The notes under the pieces were generated by a model. That model had not been told where the DNA came from and made no database searches. It worked only from the letters and a program-made list of their open reading frames with translations. From a virus (taxonomy: Duplodnaviria; Caudoviricetes), in the IMG/VR virus record IMGVR_UViG_3300024265_000007, positions 1 through 51,993 of that record: 51,993 bases of DNA. The stretch is one strand, 5' to 3'. The position numbers were made by a program, and so were the translations under genes. This document shows, one piece after another, positions 5,959 to 48,978 of this stretch (position 1 is its first letter; the number at the start of each line of letters is the position of its first letter).

Positions 5959-6705
5959 ATGAATACATATCTTGCATATAGCGGTGGCAAGGACAGTACC
6001 GCTATGGCGTTGTTAATGCCCGATGCGATTCCGGTGTTTACTGATACAGGCTGGGAATTTGATGAAATCTATAACCAGATGGATAAATTCGAGGAAGTAA
6101 CCGGACGGGAAATAATACGCATTGTTCCAGATGAAACTTTACCGGAATATATCAGACGTTCAAAATTTTTGCCAGGGCATCGGGCACGATTCTGTACACG
6201 AATTTTTAAGATAGAACAGTATAATACCTGGATTGCTTTACAAGCTGCGAAAAACAAACATGTGGATATGTGTATTGGGCTGAGGGCTGATGAAGATAAA
6301 AGAGTTGGTAATATATCGGAAATTGAAGGTGTGAATATCCGTTATCCGTTACAAGAAAAGGGGGTCGATAAATTTGAAGTTATTAGAACATGCTTGGATT
6401 ATAACCTTTTACCTCGCTATCCTGTTTATATGGCTCGTGGTGGGTGTAAGGGATGTTACTACAAGCGCAAGGCAGAAGTTAAGGCGATGGTGCAATTATG
6501 TCCCGATGTGTTGGATGGATTACAGGACATAGAGGAAGAAGTCCAAGACGAACGCGGGCGATTTGCATTCATGTTTCCCAATATCAACATGAGTATTCGA
6601 GATTTGCGGCGGCAACCAGCGTTATTCGATATGACAGAAGTTTATCAGAGCGCCTCGCAACGTGCCGATTACGGGCGCAATTGCGGCGCATTTTGCGGAA
6701 GGTAA
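5959..6705 (+). CDS. PAPS-reductase-family (PP-loop, DndC-like) protein
   Basis: YSGGKDSTAM PP-loop, DTGWE, RFCTRIFK, GLRADE, RGGCKGC. Confidence 0.88.
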   Translation: MNTYLAYSGGKDSTAMALLMPDAIPVFTDTGWEFDEIYNQMDKFEEVTGREIIRIVPDETLPEYIRRSKFLPGHRARFCTRIFKIEQYNTWIALQAAKNKHVDMCIGLRADEDKRVGNISEIEGVNIRYPLQEKGVDKFEVIRTCLDYNLLPRYPVYMARGGCKGCYYKRKAEVKAMVQLCPDVLDGLQDIEEEVQDERGRFAFMFPNINMSIRDLRRQPALFDMTEVYQSASQRADYGRNCGAFCGR

Positions 6706-10987: not shown

Positions 10988-13212
10988 CCATCACGACAAT
11001 CAATTGGAATTTTCGCAATGATCTACACTTGGTAAAGGGCGCTGCACTCCATGTCCTACTATCACTTATCACACATGCTAACGGCAATATGCGAGCATGG
11101 CCAAGCATCAAAAAACTAGTACGTGAAACAGGCTATAGCAATAAGCCAATTGTCGAAGGGATACAACAGCTAGAAAGAATATCAGCCATTGTGAAAGTGC
11201 CATATAATAAACGCATGGAATTGGAGAAGCCGCTCCACAAACGTAAGGCAGTATATCAGTTGACCGGGATGTACTCTTTTGGTGACGTAAAAGGCGAATA
11301 TCTATTGCTCGATGCGCTGCCACCGGAGTCAATCGAAAGCCTATTGTCCACATTGAAATCACTCTCTTTTAATCCACCAAGCGGTAAAAGTGTAGTATGT
11401 GAAATTTTACAATCTAAAATTTTAGAATCTACACACGAAGGTAGTACAGTAGTTAAAGGTGGTACAAAAAAGAAAAGTATTTTTACCGACAACCAAAAAG
11501 CAGTTGTCGGTAACACGCCCGGTGATGAACAAGTTATCCATACCGATTGCGTCCATTATGATGATGGATGCAAATGCACTCAGACAGGGTTTGATTTTCT
11601 CGGCGACTGCAATGGATGTAACGGATATCACAAAACGCCCGGTGATGATGTGGATGGCCGCAGAGTCTATTGCTTACATCATGGTCGTCAGGACAATACC
11701 TGTATATTGGGGAAACCTAGCAAAGCGTATTGTTCTGATTGCCCTGGCTACGAACCATTGGCCAATGGCAACGAAGACCATGATAGAAGTCATTGGCAGC
11801 AATACACACACACACCGACTATGGGAGAATTGTATTGCAGTAAATGCCAATCCTTAATCGGTGATATGAGAACGTCAGGGACATATTATCAAGAGAATGA
11901 GATATCTATGTTCCGTCTTTGCCCCGGTTGCTGGGTTGACACTGGCGGCGAATTACCCAAACGGACTACGTTGGGAGCTGAAATCGACATGGACAGCCCG
12001 CTAACCGCCGACGAATTGCAGCACGCGGCGGACTTGAGTTTCGAGTACGGCAATGTCATCGACAATATAAAAGTACCTACTATCATGATTGATAATGGCA
12101 TCAAGTACATGGCAGACCGAACACAGCATGGCGATATTATGCAGTTGATGATTATCTGCGGTTGTGACTGTGGATTGCTCAAAGAACATGACGTTCACAC
12201 ATTGTATTCTATTGATGGCAAAGGCAGCACTGAGAATATCATGGTGTGCCTGTCGTGCGGACACATCACCTATGGACGTGAGCATAGCAGTATGGAAAAA
12301 GAGCAACAGTTGACATCGAAGCAGGCGGCGGTGTTGGAATACATGAGATTAGTGGCCCGAAAATCTGATGACACCTTTTTCGATGCGTATAAAAACGAAT
12401 GGTACGATTTAGAACGCACTTTTGAATATGTGGAATATAGCGCAACAGGTGGGAGCCGTAGGTTGACAACTACTGGCCGCGCCGCCCTGCAAAAGTATCA
12501 GGATGCACAAGTGAAGCCCCCGTGCCCGAAGTGCTCATGTATTGGTGACTTGGTTGTGACGTGTTGTGACGAATGTTTCGACTCGAAACAAACGAAAAGT
12601 TCCGAGCCGGAACAATTGGAGCATGTGGGCGCATTGTGCGAAGTAGTAGACGATAGCCCATTACATAACGTGTCGAAACATTTGCCCAAAGCCAAAGCGA
12701 AGAAACCGCGCAAGGCGAAAGCGAAGCCAAAATGTACCAAGTGTGACAAGCCTCGCAAGATTGTAGAAAACGGCATGTGCTGGGAATGCAACGGCTATCC
12801 TGACCGGGCGGCGATGATTGACATTATCTATTATAGGATTGGATGGCCGCAAACCAAAACCATGTACAAGGCGGTCAACATGAAAGTCGCAACCGCCCTG
12901 GCCGAATGGGGCGTAACACTCAAGAACCTAGACCGCTATGTCGATGAGATGGTAGTTGTATCGAAGGCACAAGGGTGGTCACTGACCATGAACGCGCTAT
13001 CCAATGAGAGCAGATTCTTGAACTGGCTTGTTGAAGACAAACAAATGAATTGGGGTGATGATACTCCGCCTTGCACCGAACCTCTGCCTGAAGTGCCAGG
13101 TTCTTTATCTGGCACTCAGATCGTGAAATTAAGCGAAAAAGAGTTGTCCGAATTAGAAGAATTAGAAGAGCGTGCGCGTAAGCATCTTACTGAACTTCCA
13201 AAGGTAGAATGA
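10984..13212 (+). CDS. Replication initiator-like protein (N-terminal winged HTH, many Cys-rich modules)
   Basis: AWPSIKKLVRETGYS...IQQLE HTH; directly upstream of DnaB; internal AT-rich tandem repeats. Confidence 0.75.
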   Translation: MTITTINWNFRNDLHLVKGAALHVLLSLITHANGNMRAWPSIKKLVRETGYSNKPIVEGIQQLERISAIVKVPYNKRMELEKPLHKRKAVYQLTGMYSFGDVKGEYLLLDALPPESIESLLSTLKSLSFNPPSGKSVVCEILQSKILESTHEGSTVVKGGTKKKSIFTDNQKAVVGNTPGDEQVIHTDCVHYDDGCKCTQTGFDFLGDCNGCNGYHKTPGDDVDGRRVYCLHHGRQDNTCILGKPSKAYCSDCPGYEPLANGNEDHDRSHWQQYTHTPTMGELYCSKCQSLIGDMRTSGTYYQENEISMFRLCPGCWVDTGGELPKRTTLGAEIDMDSPLTADELQHAADLSFEYGNVIDNIKVPTIMIDNGIKYMADRTQHGDIMQLMIICGCDCGLLKEHDVHTLYSIDGKGSTENIMVCLSCGHITYGREHSSMEKEQQLTSKQAAVLEYMRLVARKSDDTFFDAYKNEWYDLERTFEYVEYSATGGSRRLTTTGRAALQKYQDAQVKPPCPKCSCIGDLVVTCCDECFDSKQTKSSEPEQLEHVGALCEVVDDSPLHNVSKHLPKAKAKKPRKAKAKPKCTKCDKPRKIVENGMCWECNGYPDRAAMIDIIYYRIGWPQTKTMYKAVNMKVATALAEWGVTLKNLDRYVDEMVVVSKAQGWSLTMNALSNESRFLNWLVEDKQMNWGDDTPPCTEPLPEVPGSLSGTQIVKLSEKELSELEELEERARKHLTELPKVE
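11402..11466. repeat. Iteron-like repeats (candidate origin) inside the initiator gene
   Basis: AAATTTTACAATCTA/AAATTTTAGAATCTA tandem (11402-11431); AAGGTAGTACA/AAGGTGGTACA (11438-11448, 11456-11466). Confidence 0.45.
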
Positions 13213-14573
13213 TGACTAACCAACCAAAGCAATGCCAAAAGCAGAAGCCCAGCCAAAGCAATATCACATTGTTGGAGATGCCCTCCGATAATCTTTGGAG
13301 CGAAGAAGTGGAACAGGCTTGTATCGGGTCTGTGCTGATAGGCCCGGAATCTTATTACATGGTAGCACGGTTGGTTGCCGACGGACAGGCATTCTATCTT
13401 TTGCGTCACCAATGGATATGGAAAGCGATTAAACATCTTGTTGGCAACGAGATGGCAGTTGATATGGTGACTATCTCGCATCAACTAGAGTCCACAGGGC
13501 AACTTGGAGACATTGGCGGGCCGCTATACCTTACACAACTTTCCACCAACACCCCGACATCAGTCCACGCCGAAACTTACGCCCGGATGGTACAGCGCCT
13601 TTACACCAAACGCCAGATGATTGCACTGGGTAACGATATAAAAGGCGCTATGGATACTGAGGATAGTATGGAACGCATCTTGGCACGGGTGCAGAGTAAG
13701 ATTGACAACACAATGGACATCCTCAGCCAACAGGTCATAATGACAATGGCCGATCATAACCATGACCATTTTGACGCTTCTGAAAAAGCCCGCGAGAAGG
13801 GCGAAATACTGCGCGGTGTTCCGACAGGTATCCCGGCAATAACTGAACTGATAGAAGCCCTTTTCCCGGCGACTTATGTTGTGGGTGCGCGGGTGCATGA
13901 GGGTAAAACCATCACATTAACAACCATGGCCTTGAATGCAGTGTTGGAAGACTTTAGCGTGGCGTTTTTCAACTGCGCCGATGGCGACTTGCAGACCGTC
14001 CTCAATACATTTTACGGCATGGAAAGCGGATTGCCGCCAGCAATGATAGAGCGCCGTACCTGGAACGATGCTCAGTATCAAAAGTATATGGATTGCCTGG
14101 GACGCATGAACAAGTTGAAATTATTCATTACCCATAAGAACGGAATCACGCCGCGTGATATTTGGGCGCAAGCGCAGATTATCCAGAGGTCACATGGATT
14201 GGATATGATAATTATTGATTACATCCAAGAAATGGGTATTGACCCCGATGTGCGTGTTCGCAATGAACGTGAGAAGTTGATGTATATCTCAAAAGCATTG
14301 AAGGACATTCGTAAAAAGTTCAATATCCCGGTAGTCTACGGGGCACAGATAAGATTGGACGGCAACGATGATAAGCCACCTCGAATTGAGAACGCTCAGG
14401 AATCGCGCAACATTATCCAGAATGCTGATGTGGGTATTGCTCTATGGCACAAGATCAAACACATGCCAGAATTGGTGATTAGTGTGCAGAAGAATAAAAA
14501 AGGCAATCATATGAAGGGACAGCGCAAGGTCGGCTTTAGCAGTGTCACCGGACGGCTTAATTCAAAATTGTAA
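13209..14573 (+). CDS. dnaB: DnaB-like replicative helicase
   Basis: N-domain EEVEQACIGSVL...IGGPLYLTQL; GVPTG; Walker A GARVHEGKT; IIIDYIQ; ESRNIIQNAD. Confidence 0.9.
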   Translation: MMTNQPKQCQKQKPSQSNITLLEMPSDNLWSEEVEQACIGSVLIGPESYYMVARLVADGQAFYLLRHQWIWKAIKHLVGNEMAVDMVTISHQLESTGQLGDIGGPLYLTQLSTNTPTSVHAETYARMVQRLYTKRQMIALGNDIKGAMDTEDSMERILARVQSKIDNTMDILSQQVIMTMADHNHDHFDASEKAREKGEILRGVPTGIPAITELIEALFPATYVVGARVHEGKTITLTTMALNAVLEDFSVAFFNCADGDLQTVLNTFYGMESGLPPAMIERRTWNDAQYQKYMDCLGRMNKLKLFITHKNGITPRDIWAQAQIIQRSHGLDMIIIDYIQEMGIDPDVRVRNEREKLMYISKALKDIRKKFNIPVVYGAQIRLDGNDDKPPRIENAQESRNIIQNADVGIALWHKIKHMPELVISVQKNKKGNHMKGQRKVGFSSVTGRLNSKL

Positions 14574-16310: not shown

Positions 16311-16521
16311 TGTTACATTAACGGTAGTGGAGTGCAAGCAGGTTATAGATTTAGTCGATAACCAGTTGTCGCAATTGCAAGACGATTTGCGGCGCTACGA
16401 ACTTAGCCCGGCAGTTGATACCCCAGATTACTTGCAGCCTCGTATCGTTGCAATGCAGGCGATACAAATTAAGATGCGAGATGCAATCGAAGCCGCGACA
16501 ATTAGCATAGAGGTGGAGTGA
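16297..16521 (+). CDS. Hypothetical protein
   Basis: AGGAG RBS before MRFRNV. Confidence 0.55.
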   Translation: MRFRNVTLTVVECKQVIDLVDNQLSQLQDDLRRYELSPAVDTPDYLQPRIVAMQAIQIKMRDAIEAATISIEVE

Positions 16522-17366
16522 TGGACAATAACAAGACAGTATCAGAAATGGAAACCAGAGCAAAATTTTTTTCTAAGATGAGTCGTATCACCGGCAAGAT
16601 ACTCAATCTCAAGAAAGATGCGACTAACAAGTTTCACAAGTATGATTATGTCAGTGCTGACAATGTGCTGCAAGCCCTTGCGCCATTAATAGCAGAAGAG
16701 AACATCGCGTTAATATCCGAGACACTAGAGGTCATGATAGATGACAAAGTGTATATGCCGAAATACCGCTTTACATTCGTCTGCGGTGATACTGGCTACA
16801 TGCTGCCCTGTGATTGGTATGGCGAAACTGTTCATACCTCCAACAAAGGAACACGCGACGATAAGGCGCTCAATAAGTCGGCCACAATATCGCAAAAATA
16901 TTTCCTGCTAAAAACCTTCCTGATTGCTACCGGTGATGACCCGGACGGCGATAGTGGTGATACAGGGAAAAAGTCACAGAAGAAGCAAAGCAAGCCCAAA
17001 TCCAAACCGAAAACCAAAGCATGGAATGAAGACCCCGCTCAGGTGGAAAAATTTGCAGGTTGGTGTAAAGATGTGATGAGAGACTATCGCCCAGAATATA
17101 TGATTGATGCGCTTAATCAAGCGTTGGTTACACCACTCGCAGAATTCAGCAAAATGAAACAATACCCCGGCGATAAGACGCACGCAATGGATGCGATTAT
17201 CGCTTATGAATGCGGATATGATAACACTGCGATTTTGGCTGCAATTGAAAGCGTTTTACCTGATGCGACTTTTGAACAAATGGAACTACATACTGATGCG
17301 GTTGAACTTATCAATGGCCGTGTCAACACCCGCCAACTACAAGCAGATAAGGAGATAAAATACTAA
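16518..17366 (+). CDS. erf: ERF-family single-strand annealing protein
   Basis: KKDATNKFHKYDYVS...DKALNKSATISQKYFLLKTFLIATGDDPD. Confidence 0.85.
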   Translation: MMDNNKTVSEMETRAKFFSKMSRITGKILNLKKDATNKFHKYDYVSADNVLQALAPLIAEENIALISETLEVMIDDKVYMPKYRFTFVCGDTGYMLPCDWYGETVHTSNKGTRDDKALNKSATISQKYFLLKTFLIATGDDPDGDSGDTGKKSQKKQSKPKSKPKTKAWNEDPAQVEKFAGWCKDVMRDYRPEYMIDALNQALVTPLAEFSKMKQYPGDKTHAMDAIIAYECGYDNTAILAAIESVLPDATFEQMELHTDAVELINGRVNTRQLQADKEIKY

Positions 17367-22347: not shown

Positions 22348-22659
22348 GTGATGAATTCTGAAGAGCAAAAGAAAATGGAAAAACTAAAATGTGATGTTGT
22401 AGCAATCGACCAAGAGCATGGGATACCTTTTGGTTATTGGGGTCGAATTGACTTTAAGACGGTAAGGGTTGAGCAATTTTATAACAATCTTAGAGTAAAT
22501 GTCATTTTCTGGCAGAAAATAAAAGAAGGGGATGATCTTTATTGCGTGGACATGACAGGCGAGAAGGAAATGGGCGGGCTATCTGTCGTTGTTCCACCTG
22601 ATTACGATCTTGAATGGTTACGTGAGGAGTTTGCAAGGGCTTGTATTAATAGAAGATAG
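22348..22659 (+). CDS. Hypothetical protein
   Basis: Last early-strand ORF before the RNA cluster. Confidence 0.55.
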   Translation: MMNSEEQKKMEKLKCDVVAIDQEHGIPFGYWGRIDFKTVRVEQFYNNLRVNVIFWQKIKEGDDLYCVDMTGEKEMGGLSVVVPPDYDLEWLREEFARACINRR

Positions 22660-22676: not shown

Positions 22677-22750
22677 TACGGGATGGAACAGGTGGTCAGT
22701 TCGTCGGTCTCATAATCCGAAGGTCGTAGGTTCGAATCCTACTCCCGTGA
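22677..22750 (+). tRNA. tRNA-Met(CAT), initiator-like; CCA not encoded
   Basis: Acceptor TACGGGA/TCCCGTG, D stem GAAC/GTTC (A11:U24), anticodon arm TCGGT-CTCATAA-TCCGA, T arm GTAGG-TTCGAAT-CCTAC. Confidence 0.9.
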
Positions 22751-22752
22751 CA

Positions 22753-22846
22753 TGGAGAGCAGCACGCCGATAGGTTCAATCCCTATGATACAGTCTGGCG
22801 ATGAGTGACGGGACTTGGTGTGTAGGTTCAATTCCTACCCTCTCCA
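22753..22846 (+). ncRNA. tRNA-like RNA with two T-loop hairpins
   Basis: TGGAGAG/CTCTCCA closing stem; T arm GTAGG-TTCAATT-CCTAC; second ATAGG-TTCAATC-CCTAT where the D arm would be. Confidence 0.6.
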
Positions 22847-22901
22847 CAAAGAGGACTGATTGACCGGATAGATAACAAGTGACTGGCGCAGGACTCTTTC
22901 C

Positions 22902-23010
22902 TGGGGACGTAGTTTAATCGGTAAAACAACCCGTGGCAGAAGTTGGGCGAGTGTACAGTAACCCAGTCGGAAACACAGGAAGATGGTTGTTCGCAGCAAC
23001 CCGATCTCCA
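22902..23010 (+). ncRNA. tRNA-like RNA with greatly extended anticodon arm
   Basis: GGGGACG/CG(A)TCTCC acceptor, TA, D arm GTTT-AATCGGTA-AAAC, ~48-nt extended arm, T arm GGTTG-TTCGCAG-CAACC. Confidence 0.65.
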
Positions 23011-23051
23011 CATGCCCTTTAGAGAGGACGCTCTCACATAGATGAAAAAGG

Positions 23052-23094
23052 AAACACCCCGTTCGGCAGATCACCGGGCGGGGTGTTTTTGTTT
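23052..23094. terminator. Terminator at the early/late convergence (possibly bidirectional)
   Basis: AAACACCCCGTTCGG/CCGGGCGGGGTGTTT with a T-rich 3' side and A-rich 5' side. Confidence 0.75.
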
Positions 23095-23205
23095 CTAAGC
23101 CGACTCCCCTGCTCACGCAACACAATACCCCTGATTAGCGCCAAAATCTCTACAATCGGCGCACAGGGGCAGCAACTATACTTTATGTTATCGAACTACT
23201 GAGGG

Positions 23206-45733: not shown

Positions 45734-46108
45734 TTACTCCTCAAACAATTCTGTCAATGGACGGGATATATCATCCGGCTTTGATTCTTGTGCTTTCAAC
45801 AATTTCATATTCTTTGCAAACCTAGCTTTGTAGACTTCAACCATCCGCAAATCAGAAGCTATAGTGTCTTTAATTTCAGCTATTGAATCTTCGTGTGTGT
45901 TGAGTCTTATCTTTTCTTTACTATACCAAGGGTCACTCTCTACATCCTCATATTTATAAAGATGTGAGTTATCGTTTAACTCTTTTCTGATTAGCGAACA
46001 GAGTTCCCCGCTATCATATTCATCGTTTACTTCAACATGTTCTCCAGCGTCATCTATCCAGATAAGCATTACTTCGTTATCTACAAAATATTGACTTGTT
46101 ATTTTCAT
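45734..46108 (-). CDS. Hypothetical protein
   Basis: ATGA overlap with the portal stop. Confidence 0.55.
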   Translation of the reverse strand: MKITSQYFVDNEVMLIWIDDAGEHVEVNDEYDSGELCSLIRKELNDNSHLYKYEDVESDPWYSKEKIRLNTHEDSIAEIKDTIASDLRMVEVYKARFAKNMKLLKAQESKPDDISRPLTELFEE

Positions 46109-48978
46109 TTTGTACCCCCTGCAATTAACTCTTTCATCAATTCCATAATGCTCTTTGTGATGAGCTTCAACTTGCCGCGTGCCTTCGCTTTCACCGGCAC
46201 TAGGTTGCAGTCGCAATTGTCGCCATGACAGGCCAGTGTATCGCTCTGCGGCATTGCGCCTATTTTTACCCAATGCTTGAAGCGGTGGCGTTGGCCGTTG
46301 TAGCCCGAACAGCTTTTACAATGAATCTCGGTTTTTCCAAGGACCCATTCGGACATCTTGTTGCCACCGGCACTGGCGAATCCCGCATCATACATTGGCT
46401 TGACACTCTTATTGTACCATTGAGCGCCTTTACCTTGCGAACTTGTCAGCTTTTCTGATTTTACCGTTCCCAGCAAACTAGTCACGAATTGCGATTGTTC
46501 GGAGATAAACTGGTTTATCTCTACTTGTTCGGCATCGGTTGGCTCTTCGCCCAGAGCGCCGCCGTCGGTTAATCCGTCCCGATATACCTTGTTATTGGCT
46601 TTGCGAATGATACTCCGCAGCGTGGAACTAGCTTGTCGCCGTGTTGTCTTGCCGTCAATGTGGACTTGCAGCGTGTCCTCGAAGTCATCCTCGAAATCAA
46701 TTCGGGTTGCCTGAACGGACTTGATCGCTACCCAGTCCTTAACCATCCCAAAGATAGACTTGACTGTCAGCCCAGATTCTGTCTTGTTGTAACCTTTGAA
46801 CGATTCAATTACTGTGTCTGCAATATCACCGCGAGTGTAATTCGGCTCAAACTTTGGCAGGGACTTTAGTCCGTTTGCACCGCGCCGTTTGATAAACGTA
46901 TACCAAGCATCAAGTTCTTTTTGCGCCTTCTCTACCGACCAGTCCCAATTATCGACAGTCGATTGCGAACGCGCCATAACTGCCTTGACGCAAACCAGAT
47001 TTGACTTTTGGCCAACAACATGAAACTCATCATAATATTCCCGTCCGTAAACAACCCGATCAATCCCCAGAACAAACGGTTCAATCTCAATATCGGGAAT
47101 AGTGACCTCGTTCGGAATATAGGCCATTGTGATGTGAGGATGATAATCGTTCGGGTTGCTATGTTCAGATAATTCCATTCCCTTAAACTTGTCAAATATC
47201 TGGGACTGCAATCTGTCTAATGCAACCGAATTATTGACCACTAAATGGAGGGCTTGCCCATTATCAGTATCGAATATTCCCACTTCTTTAATCTCAAGTG
47301 GATTATCATCCAGCTTAAATTCGTCTATTGAATTGATCGTGCGTGCATCTAATTCCCGATCTGATATGTCCGGGGCATAGACCAATGTTACATGAAAGGT
47401 GTCCGGTTCTTGCCATTCAATATCGGCGGATTCCCCAATGATGCCTTTGATCTTGCGTTGGATTGCCAATAGTTCGTCCCGCTCTGCTAAGTCGATATAG
47501 ACGTATGCTGACTTGTCCTGCGCCTTCGCTTTCAGTGACTCAGGCTCAGTTGGCGAAAAAGGGGGCGGATCATTACCTTCCGGTGGTAAGTCTGGCAAAT
47601 CGCCACCTTCAACATCAGAAGTCTGTGCGACTACCGCCGCTTCTTCTGGCGTTCCACCGGCAACAAAACCGGACTTCAGGTCTTCAGGTGAAACAAAGAC
47701 CATGCCCGGTTGCACCATTAACAGATTGCCACGCTCCTCTTCAAATGGCTCTAATTTTTGCCGCTTCCTTGCTTCATTGATTGTGATGATTGTATTCTGT
47801 AAATTCCTCCCGGCAATCTCCGCTTCGCGGAGGTCATTCTCACTCACCCGGTCAAACTCAGAGCGGTCTACTACTAACCTATCCAGATGATATTCGGGAG
47901 GTAGTAGCGGAATAATACGACGATTGAAAAATGCGATAATGTCATCGGCGCGCGGGATAATATTGCTAGTATAGAAGCGGTAGGTTGTCTCGTCACCTTG
48001 CTTGTATCCTGCTATATCGCTATTACCCAGCATTGTTTCCGGTACGCCAAACTGATTTAATATTCGCTCACCTGTCTTTTGCGAATAGGAGGTGATTGCG
48101 CTATAATCAGGATAATCTAATTTTGTAACCTCAACATCGCCCGGCCAAAATATAAGGCCACCAACGTTTTCGGGTCCGCGTGACCTCTTTTTTGCATCTT
48201 CCAGCCCTTCGCGTGTCGCCTGTAAATTACTAAACGAGCCACCTTTTGACGAGACGACTCCCATGCCCTGAATGCCGTTTTGGAAATGAGATACAACTGA
48301 TGTCTGGATAGCGAAATCAATTTCCAGACTTTCCAGGACGGCCAGCACATCAGGGTAGCCGCGTAAATCATCTTGAGGATTGTAGCCATGCTTATAGGCA
48401 ATCTCGAACGGTTTATACGTCTCTGGACTGCCAGTGTCAAACGGTGAATAGAAATACTGATTGACTTTCCCATTGGACGCATTAAGAGACACCCCCAGTG
48501 GATTCAGCCAGTCAAGGGCGAGCAGGGGATTATATTTACTGACTGGATAATCATCACGCTTGCGAACGAGTTCAATATACAATTCGTCAAATAGTGTGAG
48601 GGAGGCCGCCACACGGAACAGGAGCGACATATGTTGATGGTCTTCATAGGCATGGAACAGTTGGAAGAGGGGATGCTGGGGAATAGGATCGTCACTTCTA
48701 GCAACTTCTGTGCCCTCCCATTTATCATTAGCTCCGGTCATGCCCCGTTCAAATCGTTTGATTGAATAGGGCAGGGTGTTTATGCCGGACGCGATTAGCT
48801 CCACACATTTTTCCACATAGCCGATCACGATATATGCTTGGGCCGCACCCCATTTTGTACGCGATAATTGATCCCCTCTATTAGCAGCGTTTACCCAGGG
48901 AGCAAGGGGCGACCAGGTGCCCAGGTCGATTGATTTCTGCACGGTGCTTGGCCGCTTTGTTTTAGTATTCCATTTCAT
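46105..48978 (-). CDS. Portal protein fused to a 2H phosphoesterase and a MuF-like head morphogenesis domain
   Basis: Portal: VEKCVELIASGI, LDWLNP, FGVPETMLG, ITINEAR. 2H: FHVTL and YHPHITMAY. MuF-like: EWVLG..EIHCKSC...CHGDNCDC. Confidence 0.87.
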   Translation of the reverse strand: MKWNTKTKRPSTVQKSIDLGTWSPLAPWVNAANRGDQLSRTKWGAAQAYIVIGYVEKCVELIASGINTLPYSIKRFERGMTGANDKWEGTEVARSDDPIPQHPLFQLFHAYEDHQHMSLLFRVAASLTLFDELYIELVRKRDDYPVSKYNPLLALDWLNPLGVSLNASNGKVNQYFYSPFDTGSPETYKPFEIAYKHGYNPQDDLRGYPDVLAVLESLEIDFAIQTSVVSHFQNGIQGMGVVSSKGGSFSNLQATREGLEDAKKRSRGPENVGGLIFWPGDVEVTKLDYPDYSAITSYSQKTGERILNQFGVPETMLGNSDIAGYKQGDETTYRFYTSNIIPRADDIIAFFNRRIIPLLPPEYHLDRLVVDRSEFDRVSENDLREAEIAGRNLQNTIITINEARKRQKLEPFEEERGNLLMVQPGMVFVSPEDLKSGFVAGGTPEEAAVVAQTSDVEGGDLPDLPPEGNDPPPFSPTEPESLKAKAQDKSAYVYIDLAERDELLAIQRKIKGIIGESADIEWQEPDTFHVTLVYAPDISDRELDARTINSIDEFKLDDNPLEIKEVGIFDTDNGQALHLVVNNSVALDRLQSQIFDKFKGMELSEHSNPNDYHPHITMAYIPNEVTIPDIEIEPFVLGIDRVVYGREYYDEFHVVGQKSNLVCVKAVMARSQSTVDNWDWSVEKAQKELDAWYTFIKRRGANGLKSLPKFEPNYTRGDIADTVIESFKGYNKTESGLTVKSIFGMVKDWVAIKSVQATRIDFEDDFEDTLQVHIDGKTTRRQASSTLRSIIRKANNKVYRDGLTDGGALGEEPTDAEQVEINQFISEQSQFVTSLLGTVKSEKLTSSQGKGAQWYNKSVKPMYDAGFASAGGNKMSEWVLGKTEIHCKSCSGYNGQRHRFKHWVKIGAMPQSDTLACHGDNCDCNLVPVKAKARGKLKLITKSIMELMKELIAGGTK

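What the first reader, a model, noticed from the sequence alone, without database searches (positions are those of the whole stretch)
22902..23010. tRNA mimic 2: normal D and T arms with a ~48-nt extended anticodon arm
The 5' part GGGGACG-TA-GTTT-AATCGGTA-AAAC and the 3' part AGAT-GGTTG-TTCGCAG-CAACC-CG(A)TCTCC-A are tRNA-like. The anticodon region is instead a two-tier stem (CCCGTG/CACAGG, then TTGGG/CCCAG) with a large internal loop and a 14-nt apical loop. It is too short for a group I intron or tmRNA. Like mimic 1, it ends CTCCA-CA. Inference: a tRNA scaffold displaying an RNA insert (antisense, aptamer or spliced mini-intron).
Basis: partly seen in the sequence, partly recalled or inferred. 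Interest (0 to 1): 0.72.

Follow-up and report, generated by a model that had tools for sequence, protein, structure and literature searches.

The report
Disrupted alanine-type tRNA look-alike in phage
A phage tRNA cluster ends with a tRNA-derived gene whose anticodon arm is replaced by about 40 extra bases, so it cannot read codons; it is most likely a disabled tRNA, though an alanine-accepting decoy RNA is not excluded.

Summary
At 22903-23010 (+) there is a tRNA-like sequence with a fully canonical D arm, a 5-bp T arm, and a 7-pair acceptor stem with one bulged A. In place of the anticodon stem-loop it has a weak 50-nt two-tier arm. It is not a callable tRNA: Rfam tRNA gives 16 bits against a cut-off of 29, and ARAGORN calls it only at 90% threshold with a non-canonical 33-nt 'intron'. 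The long arm folds no better than shuffled sequence. The T loop has C where A58 is expected.

New here: the acceptor carries the full alanine identity set (G1-C72, G2-C71, G3.U70, G4-C69, A73).

It lies last in a cluster of tRNA-Met, a second aberrant tRNA-like element, this element and a terminator. This resembles phage T4, where a tRNA is followed by rnaD and rnaC.

No homologue was found in any collection, so conservation cannot be tested. A distant relative carries a tmRNA tRNA-like-domain-only RNA.

Best reading: a tRNA-Ala-type gene disabled by insertion, still co-transcribed and probably processed (0.5). The main rival is a functional, possibly alanine-chargeable, tRNA-like decoy or scaffold (0.3). 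Splicing, tmRNA and attP readings are rejected.

The parts
22677..22750 (+). Intact tRNA-Met (CAU), first member of the cluster. It is followed by CA and has no encoded CCA.
   Evidence: ARAGORN; Rfam tRNA 59.1 bits.
22754..22846 (+). There is no D arm and no anticodon arm. It is followed by CA.
   Evidence: Sequence. Both T arms are near-copies of the tRNA-Met T arm (D1 and D2, 0 of 500 shuffles reach the score). It is not called as a tRNA.
22848..22899 (+). Spacer between the two tRNA-like elements, with a weak hairpin (AAAGAG.../...CUCUUU).
   Evidence: Inverted repeat I6; fold -14.0 kcal/mol, z -1.5.
22903..23010 (+). The finding: a 108-nt tRNA-like element with an Ala-type acceptor stem, a canonical D arm, an extended arm in place of the anticodon arm, variable loop AAGAU, a T arm, and discriminator A.
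   Evidence: ARAGORN at 90% threshold.
22912..22927 (+). D arm, GUUU-AAUCGGUA-AAAC. With U8 and A9 before it, it carries U8, A14, A15, G18, G19 and A21.
   Evidence: Sequence. The 19-mer 22909-22927 is identical in 12 IMG/VR loci, and 6 of those 12 lie inside called tRNAs.
22930..22979 (+). Extended arm replacing the anticodon stem-loop. Tier 1 is CCCGUG/CACAGG with a C.A mismatch, followed by a 7x7 internal loop, tier 2 UUGGG/CCCAG and a 14-nt apical loop.
   Evidence: MFE and pair probabilities. There is no canonical 5-bp/7-nt loop with U33. The insert alone gives z +0.41.
22985..23001 (+). T arm GGUUG-UUCGCAG-CAACC. It has G53-C61, U54, U55 and C56, but C instead of A at position 58.
   Evidence: Sequence; pair probabilities 0.95-0.99.
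23052..23098 (+). Intrinsic terminator hairpin with a T run. It closes the + strand unit and faces the converging - strand genes.
   Evidence: Inverted repeat I1, 15-nt arms; fold -37.6 kcal/mol, z -4.45.

Best explanation
The element is a tRNA-derived gene of the alanine acceptor type. Its anticodon stem-loop has been disrupted by roughly 33-48 nt of unrelated, poorly structured sequence. It cannot decode, because it has no 7-nt anticodon loop in register.

It sits last in a three-element cluster (tRNA-Met, mimic 1, mimic 2) at the 3' end of the + strand early/replication unit, just before the terminator. It is therefore co-transcribed with tRNA-Met (inferred from layout).

The acceptor stem, T arm and D arm survive. 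The precursor is therefore probably still cut by RNase P at G22903 and trimmed at A23010, releasing a ~108-nt RNA (inferred, not shown).

Most likely that RNA is a functionless by-product: a disabled tRNA (pseudo-tRNA) in a small tRNA array that has been scrambled by local duplication and insertion. Mimic 1 next to it shows the same kind of scrambling.
For: tRNA origin:
- The Rfam tRNA model aligns locally, skipping 48 nt.
- The D-arm 19-mer is identical to real phage tRNAs: 6 of 12 IMG/VR matches lie inside called tRNAs.
- The MFE fold is a cloverleaf.
- The element is adjacent to tRNA-Met.

Disabled:
- It scores below every tRNA threshold: 16 bits against 29, and ARAGORN calls it only between the 90% and 93% thresholds.
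- There is no U33 loop in register.
- Tier 1 has a C.A mismatch, the T loop has C58, and the acceptor stem has a bulged A.
- The insert is no more structured than shuffles.

Scrambled neighbourhood:
- Mimic 1 carries two copies of the tRNA-Met T arm (0 of 500 shuffles reach the score).
- Uncalled tRNA fragments with this same D arm occur in other phage arrays: 5 of the 12 loci.

Not coding: the two overlapping - strand ORFs match no Pfam or PHROG family.
Against: - Decay looks selective. Every conserved D-arm and elbow nucleotide and the A15-U48 pair are intact, and all three stems of the scaffold still pair.
- The acceptor has the complete AlaRS identity set, and alanine identity does not depend on the anticodon. 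Three further G.U rows were tRNA-Lys calls that appear to be one base out of register.
- Two tRNA-like elements in a row, each keeping its acceptor stem and T arm, mirror T4's stable RNAs rnaD and rnaC.
- One T arm of mimic 1 differs from its paralogue by a compensatory G-C to A-U change (D2).
- Compact phage genomes tend to lose useless DNA.
- No homologue exists to show neutrality.
Confidence: 0.5

Rival explanations
1. It is a functional, non-decoding tRNA-like RNA. The tRNA body gives RNase P and 3' processing, CCA addition and stability. The G3.U70/A73 acceptor allows charging by AlaRS without an anticodon. The RNA would then act as a decoy or sink for AlaRS, EF-Tu, SmpB or a tRNA-targeting defence enzyme, or as a scaffold presenting the insert. 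It would be a tRNA-type analogue of TLD-only tmRNA mimics and of T4 species 1 and 2 RNAs.
For: - The full Ala identity set is present by inspection.
- The elbow nucleotides are intact and the MFE is a cloverleaf.
- Its position is like T4 rnaD/rnaC. The 3' 93 nt of T4 rnaC are themselves tRNA-like.
- A distant relative, G001, encodes an 88-nt TLD-only tmRNA at 62.2 bits.
- Such a molecule is listed for mycobacteriophage DS6A. A similar molecule is reported to inhibit tmRNA (PMC4131195, passages read).
- Engineered tRNA scaffolds with the anticodon arm replaced are an established way to express RNA in E. coli (PMC3753655, abstract only).
Against: - C58, the bulged A and the C.A mismatch all weaken the scaffold.
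- The insert is not structured beyond chance and has no significant complementarity within the phage genome.
- The element does not match the tmRNA model: only T-arm fragments at 9.4 bits or less.
- G001 shares only tail and portal genes with this phage, and its TLD element is not syntenic.
- It is a singleton with no conservation evidence.
- G3.U70 was noticed post hoc.
Confidence: 0.3
2. It is an intron-containing tRNA (ARAGORN's tRNA-Phe GAA with a 33-nt intron) that is spliced to a working tRNA.
For: ARAGORN calls it at 90% threshold when introns are allowed. Imperfect direct repeats AACCCGU/AACCCAGU flank the predicted intron.
Against: - Shuffled windows give 1.7 such calls per 52 kb at this threshold.
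- The predicted intron is at 32/33 rather than 37/38, and the spliced loop would have G33.
- No bulge-helix-bulge can be drawn: the internal loop is 7x7 without a 4-bp central helix.
- It is far too short for a group I intron, and no intron or ribozyme family matches at E<=10.
- The gene set (DnaB, ERF) and the intrinsic terminator point to a bacterial host. No protein-only tRNA splicing is known in bacteria (recalled).
Confidence: 0.04
3. It is a chance resemblance with no tRNA ancestry, or a phage attachment site carrying part of a host tRNA gene.
For: Every formal score is below threshold. Temperate phages often carry tRNA 3' ends in attP (recalled).
Against: - The 19-nt D arm is exactly identical to real tRNAs.
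- All four tRNA modules are present in the correct order and spacing, next to a real tRNA.
- No integrase was found: no integrase family among the 20 ORFs or the 45. That is 65 of the 85 listed ORFs; the other 20 were not scanned.
- An attP copy would be a contiguous tRNA piece, not both halves with an insert.
Confidence: 0.06

Closest known systems
Phage T4 small stable RNAs, species 1 (rnaC, 139 nt) and species 2 (rnaD, 119 nt)
   Same: Both are encoded directly after the last tRNA at the distal end of a phage tRNA cluster, two in a row and about 100-140 nt each. The 3' 93 nt of rnaC have an 8-bp acceptor-like stem and a canonical T arm around a non-tRNA interior. Their function is unknown (recalled).
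   Different: There is no sequence similarity. T4 rnaC has no canonical D arm and no G3.U70. The T4 RNAs are annotated as stable RNAs; nothing is known about expression of this element.
TLD-only tmRNA mimics of phages (mycobacteriophage DS6A; the 88-nt element of relative record G001)
   Same: Both have a G3.U70 acceptor, a discriminator A, a T arm, no anticodon, and a helical arm closed by a loop where the anticodon arm would be. Both are phage-encoded.
   Different: The window element has a normal tRNA D stem-loop rather than the tmRNA D-loop string, and it lacks the GGAC junction. It does not match Rfam tmRNA or ARAGORN's tmRNA search. Its arm is weakly paired, whereas G001 has a perfect 8-bp helix.
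tRNA pseudogenes and fragments in phage tRNA arrays
   Same: It is a tRNA-derived, uncallable element embedded in an array. The same D-arm string occurs in uncalled fragments in 5 of 12 IMG/VR loci.
   Different: Here both ends and three of the four arms are retained, and only the anticodon arm is replaced. Most fragments seen were halves.
Engineered tRNA scaffolds for recombinant RNA (Ponchon and Dardel approach)
   Same: The anticodon arm of a tRNA is replaced by a foreign RNA, and the tRNA body is used for processing and stability (PMC3753655, abstract only; details recalled).
   Different: Those are man-made. No natural phage example with a demonstrated cargo is known to me.

Membership tests
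Canonical tRNA (Rfam RF00005 / ARAGORN) | Score at or above the family threshold | tested here: not met
   16 bits against a gathering score of 29. There is no ARAGORN call at default, 97%, 95% or 93% threshold.
Canonical tRNA (Rfam RF00005 / ARAGORN) | 5-bp anticodon stem with a 7-nt loop, U33 and a purine at 37, in register | tested here: not met
   Only two 4-of-5-pair candidates exist in 22925-22990. Neither has U33 and neither is in register.
Canonical tRNA (Rfam RF00005 / ARAGORN) | D arm and elbow nucleotides (U8, A14, R15-Y48, G18, G19, A21, G53-C61, U54, U55, C56, A58) | tested here: inconclusive
   All are present by inspection except A58, which is C.
Intron-containing tRNA (group I or archaeal bulge-helix-bulge) | Group I core, or a bulge-helix-bulge at the exon-intron junctions; the usual site is 37/38 | tested here: not met
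   No intron family matches at E<=10. The insert is 33-48 nt. The internal loop is 7x7 without a 4-bp central helix. ARAGORN places the intron at 32/33.
tmRNA / TLD-only tmRNA | Match to RF00023 (47 bits) or an ARAGORN tmRNA call | tested here: not met
   Only T-arm fragments at 9.4 bits or less, and none at mimic 2. ARAGORN -m at 80% threshold finds 0. Weak permuted-tmRNA hits cover only a T arm plus acceptor strand.
tmRNA / TLD-only tmRNA | G3.U70 with A73 (alanine identity) | tested here: met
   Pairs G1-C72, G2-C71, G3.U70, G4-C69 and A5-U68, with A73, by inspection. The identity rule itself is recalled.
tmRNA / TLD-only tmRNA | D region without a stem, plus a resume codon and tag frame (full tmRNA) | tested here: not met
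   A 4-bp D stem is present. The only frame ending inside the element has no tmRNA-like tag, by inspection.
T4 rnaC/rnaD-type stable RNAs | Position right after a tRNA at the end of a phage tRNA cluster; tRNA-like ends with a non-tRNA interior | tested here: met
   Layouts compared.
T4 rnaC/rnaD-type stable RNAs | Sequence homology; accumulation as a stable RNA in infection | not testable with these tools
   No similarity in the phage collection. No RNA data are available.
tRNA pseudogene | tRNA ancestry with loss of decoding and no purifying selection | tested here: inconclusive
   Ancestry and loss of decoding are met. Selection cannot be tested because no homologue was found.

The most novel reading that the evidence does not exclude
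Mimic 2 is a working, alanine-chargeable tRNA-like decoy. It would be a natural 'tRNA scaffold' that keeps the acceptor stem, D arm and T arm so that it is processed, CCA-tailed and charged by AlaRS independently of any anticodon. Its enlarged arm would keep it out of normal decoding. It would act as TLD-only tmRNA mimics are proposed to act, by titrating a host translation or rescue factor or a tRNA-targeting defence enzyme. Together with mimic 1 it would form a T4 species-1/2-like pair whose function could finally be approached.
Probability: 0.22. Interest if true: 0.7.

Novelty: new member of a known kind. Interest (0 to 1): 0.36.

Why it matters
If it is a relic, it is an ordinary example of how small phage tRNA arrays decay by insertion and local duplication. 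If it is functional, it would be a natural tRNA-bodied carrier or decoy with alanine identity. That would link three poorly understood things: the T4 species 1 and 2 RNAs, which are still unexplained; TLD-only tmRNA mimics of phages; and the growing evidence that phage tRNAs serve counter-defence rather than codon supply. The alanine identity gives a direct test: is it charged or not?

Tried and rejected
Homologue search. All of these led nowhere for the element itself:
- An exact 25-mer of the 5' part in IMG/VR gave 0 matches.
- The T-arm 17-mer in IMG/VR gave 5 loci, and 0 of 5 held any tRNA, so these are unrelated contexts.
- A D-arm-gap-T-arm pattern in JGI metagenomes gave 0 matches.
- blastn of the element against 50,697 phage records gave only 3 records, each matching 21-27 nt of the 5' part at E 0.3-4.
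- Neighbour-protein searches. The 505-aa protein gave 6 IMG/VR loci, and 0 of 6 had a tRNA in the fetched stretch. The 103-aa, 146-aa and 192-aa neighbours gave 0 relatives in IMG/VR. ERF gave 1 marginal locus. The 146-aa protein in metagenomes gave 3 loci, 0 of 3 with a tRNA; two of them are cut before the relevant side, and L025 has only a terminator there. The 505-aa protein in GTDB genomes gave 0.

Sequencing runs. No RNA holder is listed. Run X2 holds diverged copies of flanking genes but has no cover on 22876-23143. Neither result is used as evidence.

Rejected readings:
- tmRNA or permuted tmRNA.
- Group I intron, ribozyme or Y-RNA families: no Rfam match other than tRNA at E<=10.
- Archaeal-type intron: no bulge-helix-bulge.
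- Coding on the - strand.
- attP: no integrase family among the 65 ORFs scanned; 20 short ORFs were not scanned.
- Antisense to the phage's own genome: matches are 11 nt or shorter.
- Paralogy of mimic 1 and mimic 2: 124 of 500 shuffles score as well.
- Tandem duplication of the anticodon arm: 9 of 17 identities at a post-hoc offset. I judged this not significant.

Similarity to Poribacteria tRNAs (L031-L034) beyond the forced pattern is limited to the AA linker, the AAGAU variable loop and the CUCCA end, which is about half of the unforced positions by my hand count. I do not claim specific homology. The match to the tRNA-Ala of Bacillus phage PBC2 (24 of 27 nt, E 4) is only suggestive.

The host is unknown, so the insert was not searched against a host genome. 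Supplementary files of papers were not opened.

Full report
CONTEXT. The window is a complete 51,993-bp virus record with direct terminal repeats, assembled from a subsurface metagenome. The + strand carries early and replication genes: an HTH protein, DnaB at 13209-14573, ERF at 16518-17366 and an RNase T-type exonuclease. The last + strand ORF ends at 22659. The - strand structural genes (tail, capsid, portal, terminase) converge from 23206. The tRNA-like elements therefore sit at the very end of the + strand transcription unit. A TG-extended -10-like string just upstream of tRNA-Met is my reading by eye only; the promoter scan did not list it.

THE OBSERVATION. All quoted strings are present. 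Numbering G22903 as position 1:
- The acceptor stem is G1-C72, G2-C71, G3.U70, G4-C69 and A5-U68, then a bulged A, then C6-G and G7-C. The discriminator is A23010, followed by CA.
- U8, A9 and the D arm GUUU/AAUCGGUA/AAAC carry every conserved D-region nucleotide.
- The variable loop AAGAU keeps G46 and the A15-U48 pair.
- The T arm GGUUG/UUCGCAG/CAACC has G53-C61, U54, U55 and C56, but C instead of A58.
- Between them lies a 50-nt arm at 22930-22979.
Pair probabilities are 0.95-0.99 for the T stem, 0.73-0.93 for tier 2, 0.87-0.88 for three pairs of tier 1, and 0.29 for its two outer pairs, with one C.A mismatch. The acceptor and D stems are at about 0.5. The energy is unremarkable: z +0.98, and 164 of 200 shuffles fold as well. 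The real tRNA-Met also scores only z -0.6, so this measure discriminates poorly. The insert alone is no better than shuffles (z +0.41).

IS IT tRNA-DERIVED?
- It is not a callable tRNA. ARAGORN at default settings and Rfam at gathering scores find only tRNA-Met.
- On the 126-nt stretch alone, the Rfam tRNA model aligns positions 6-65 and skips 48 nt at the anticodon, scoring 16 bits at E 0.45 over 4227 families.
- ARAGORN calls 'tRNA-Phe(gaa) with a 33-nt intron at 32/33' at 90% of its threshold but not at 93%. At 90% the real window gives 5 calls, and 30 dinucleotide shuffles give a mean of 1.7. At 80% the real window gives 86 calls and 10 shuffles give 80-101. The ARAGORN call alone is therefore at noise level.
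- The 19-nt string U8-A26 (with G7) occurs exactly in 12 IMG/VR loci. Six of the 12 lie inside called tRNAs (Ile twice, Trp twice, Thr, Asp). Five lie uncalled inside tRNA arrays. One lies in a locus without tRNAs.
Four tRNA modules in the right order and spacing, 152 nt downstream of a real tRNA on the same strand, make tRNA ancestry the only reasonable reading. I put it near 0.9.

WHAT KIND OF tRNA? The top four acceptor pairs and A73 are the alanine identity set; the G3.U70 rule is recalled from Hou and Schimmel and from Francklyn and Schimmel. The best phage-database match of the 5' part is the tRNA-Ala of Bacillus phage PBC2, at 24 of 27 nt and E 4, which is not significant. Three of these are tRNA-Ala. 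The other three are tRNA-Lys calls of one locus that start one base early and are probably out of register. A degenerate pattern (GGGG, three free positions, then the D arm) found only 4 loci in 185,579 species genomes. All four are Candidatus Poribacteria tRNAs with a G.U at the same place. Beyond the forced pattern they share with mimic 2 only the AA linker, the AAGAU variable loop and the CUCCA end, so I claim no specific homology.

WHAT THE INSERT IS NOT.
- No Rfam family other than tRNA matches at E<=10, which excludes group I introns, ribozymes and Y-RNA-like families.
- No 5-bp/7-nt loop with U33 exists in the arm.
- The internal loop is 7x7 without a central 4-bp helix, so there is no bulge-helix-bulge.
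- The tmRNA models match only T-arm fragments (weak permuted-tmRNA hits). ARAGORN's tmRNA search finds none. The only frame that ends inside the element has no tmRNA-like tag.
- The insert's best matches elsewhere in the phage genome are 11 nt or shorter.
- The overlapping - strand ORFs have no family match.

NEIGHBOUR. Mimic 1 (22754-22846) has a perfect 6-bp acceptor stem enclosing two T-arm hairpins. Both are near-copies of the tRNA-Met T arm (D1 and D2, 0 of 500 shuffles reach the score). One hairpin differs from the other by a compensatory G-C to A-U change. Mimic 1 and mimic 2 as wholes are not similar (124 of 500 shuffles reach the score). The shared TCTCCACA end is exact but short (D6). 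tRNA-Met is also followed by CA.

RELATIVES. No homologue of the element was found in IMG/VR, JGI metagenomes, GTDB genomes or the phage collection. The phage itself has no close relative. The best, record G001, shares only tail and portal genes at 31-54% identity.

Scanning whole relative records for tRNA gave a sub-threshold hit in G001. This turned out to be an 88-nt RNA matching Rfam tmRNA at 62.2 bits (cut-off 47), with the central 300 model positions deleted. It is therefore a tRNA-like-domain-only tmRNA. It has a G3.U70 acceptor, a tmRNA-type D loop, a perfect 8-bp helix closed by a loop, a T arm, and no encoded CCA. It is not syntenic with mimic 2.

Such a molecule is on record for mycobacteriophage DS6A. 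[quoted passage not shown] This shows that phages do encode alanine-type, anticodon-less tRNA look-alikes. It does not show that mimic 2 is one of them.

KNOWN PARALLEL. In T4, tRNA-Arg is followed with 1-nt and 6-nt gaps by rnaD (119 nt) and rnaC (139 nt), both annotated as small stable RNAs. The last 93 nt of rnaC form an 8-bp acceptor-like stem and a canonical T arm around a non-tRNA interior. The layout matches the window, which has a tRNA followed by a 93-nt and a 108-nt tRNA-like element.

WEIGHING.
For a relic:
- Three independent scaffold defects: C58, the bulge and the C.A mismatch.
- An insert without structure or a target.
- A neighbour that is visibly a product of local duplication.
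- The frequency of uncalled tRNA fragments in phage arrays.
For function:
- A selectively intact elbow and intact stems.
- The alanine identity set, which is one of the few that works without an anticodon.
- The T4-like layout.
- The TLD-only precedent.
The alanine argument favours only the 'chargeable decoy' sub-hypothesis, and I noticed it after the fact. My estimates are: disabled tRNA 0.5, functional tRNA-like RNA 0.3 (of which alanine-chargeable decoy about 0.22), spliced tRNA 0.04, and chance or attP 0.06. Co-transcription and processing are inferred from layout and retained modules, not shown.

No RNA run was listed. Supplementary files were not opened.

Noticed in passing
L037:1498-1585 (-), which is G001:C1:6638-6725 (-): The closest relative record, a 51.5-kb DTR phage, encodes an 88-nt tRNA-like-domain-only tmRNA. 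It matches Rfam tmRNA at 62.2 bits with the central 300 model positions deleted. It has G3.U70 and an 8-bp helix closed by a loop, and it starts right at the stop codon of the upstream ORF. Only DS6A is listed as 'TLD only' in the paper I read.
   Followed up: partly
window 46105-48978 (-): The portal protein (Phage_portal, residues 55-406) is fused to a C-terminal 2H phosphoesterase domain (LigT / 2'-5' RNA ligase / Acb1-like, residues ~500-650). This could be a virion-delivered enzyme acting on cyclic-nucleotide signals or on RNA ends.
   Followed up: no
window 22754-22846 (+): Mimic 1 has a perfect 6-bp acceptor stem around two T-arm hairpins copied from the tRNA-Met T arm. One hairpin carries a compensatory G-C to A-U change. 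It has no D arm and no anticodon arm.
   Followed up: partly
L014:12225-12340 (+), L016:6655-6767 (-), L019:1-146 (-): Three IMG/VR tRNA arrays share a conserved uncalled element right after tRNA-Tyr. It consists of a T-arm-like hairpin, the same D arm as mimic 2, a 4-5-bp mini hairpin with a variable loop, and a second T arm. I could find no matching acceptor strand.
   Followed up: no
L031:6864-6939, L032:4539-4614, L033:7104-7179, L034:4893-4968 (all -): Candidatus Poribacteria genomes carry 76-nt tRNAs with a G.U at the third acceptor pair and A73, but with a UGA or GAC anticodon call and C at position 37. The acceptor stems show compensatory changes between genomes. Each is followed by a terminator-like hairpin.
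   Followed up: partly
Rfam tRNA-Sec aligns it at 17.5 bits.
   Followed up: partly
window, one of the 45 ORFs in alignment A1; also 5959-6705 (+): One ORF matches TET-associated glycosyltransferase (TAGT, E 5.5e-13), and 5959-6705 matches a PAPS-reductase domain. This hints at DNA base hypermodification. One ORF matches a GIY-YIG nuclease.
   Followed up: no
L013:2503-2545 (+): A 5' tRNA half (acceptor strand, the same D arm, and the start of an anticodon arm) runs straight into the start of another tRNA-like sequence and is not called. This is an example of a tRNA fragment in a phage array.
   Followed up: no
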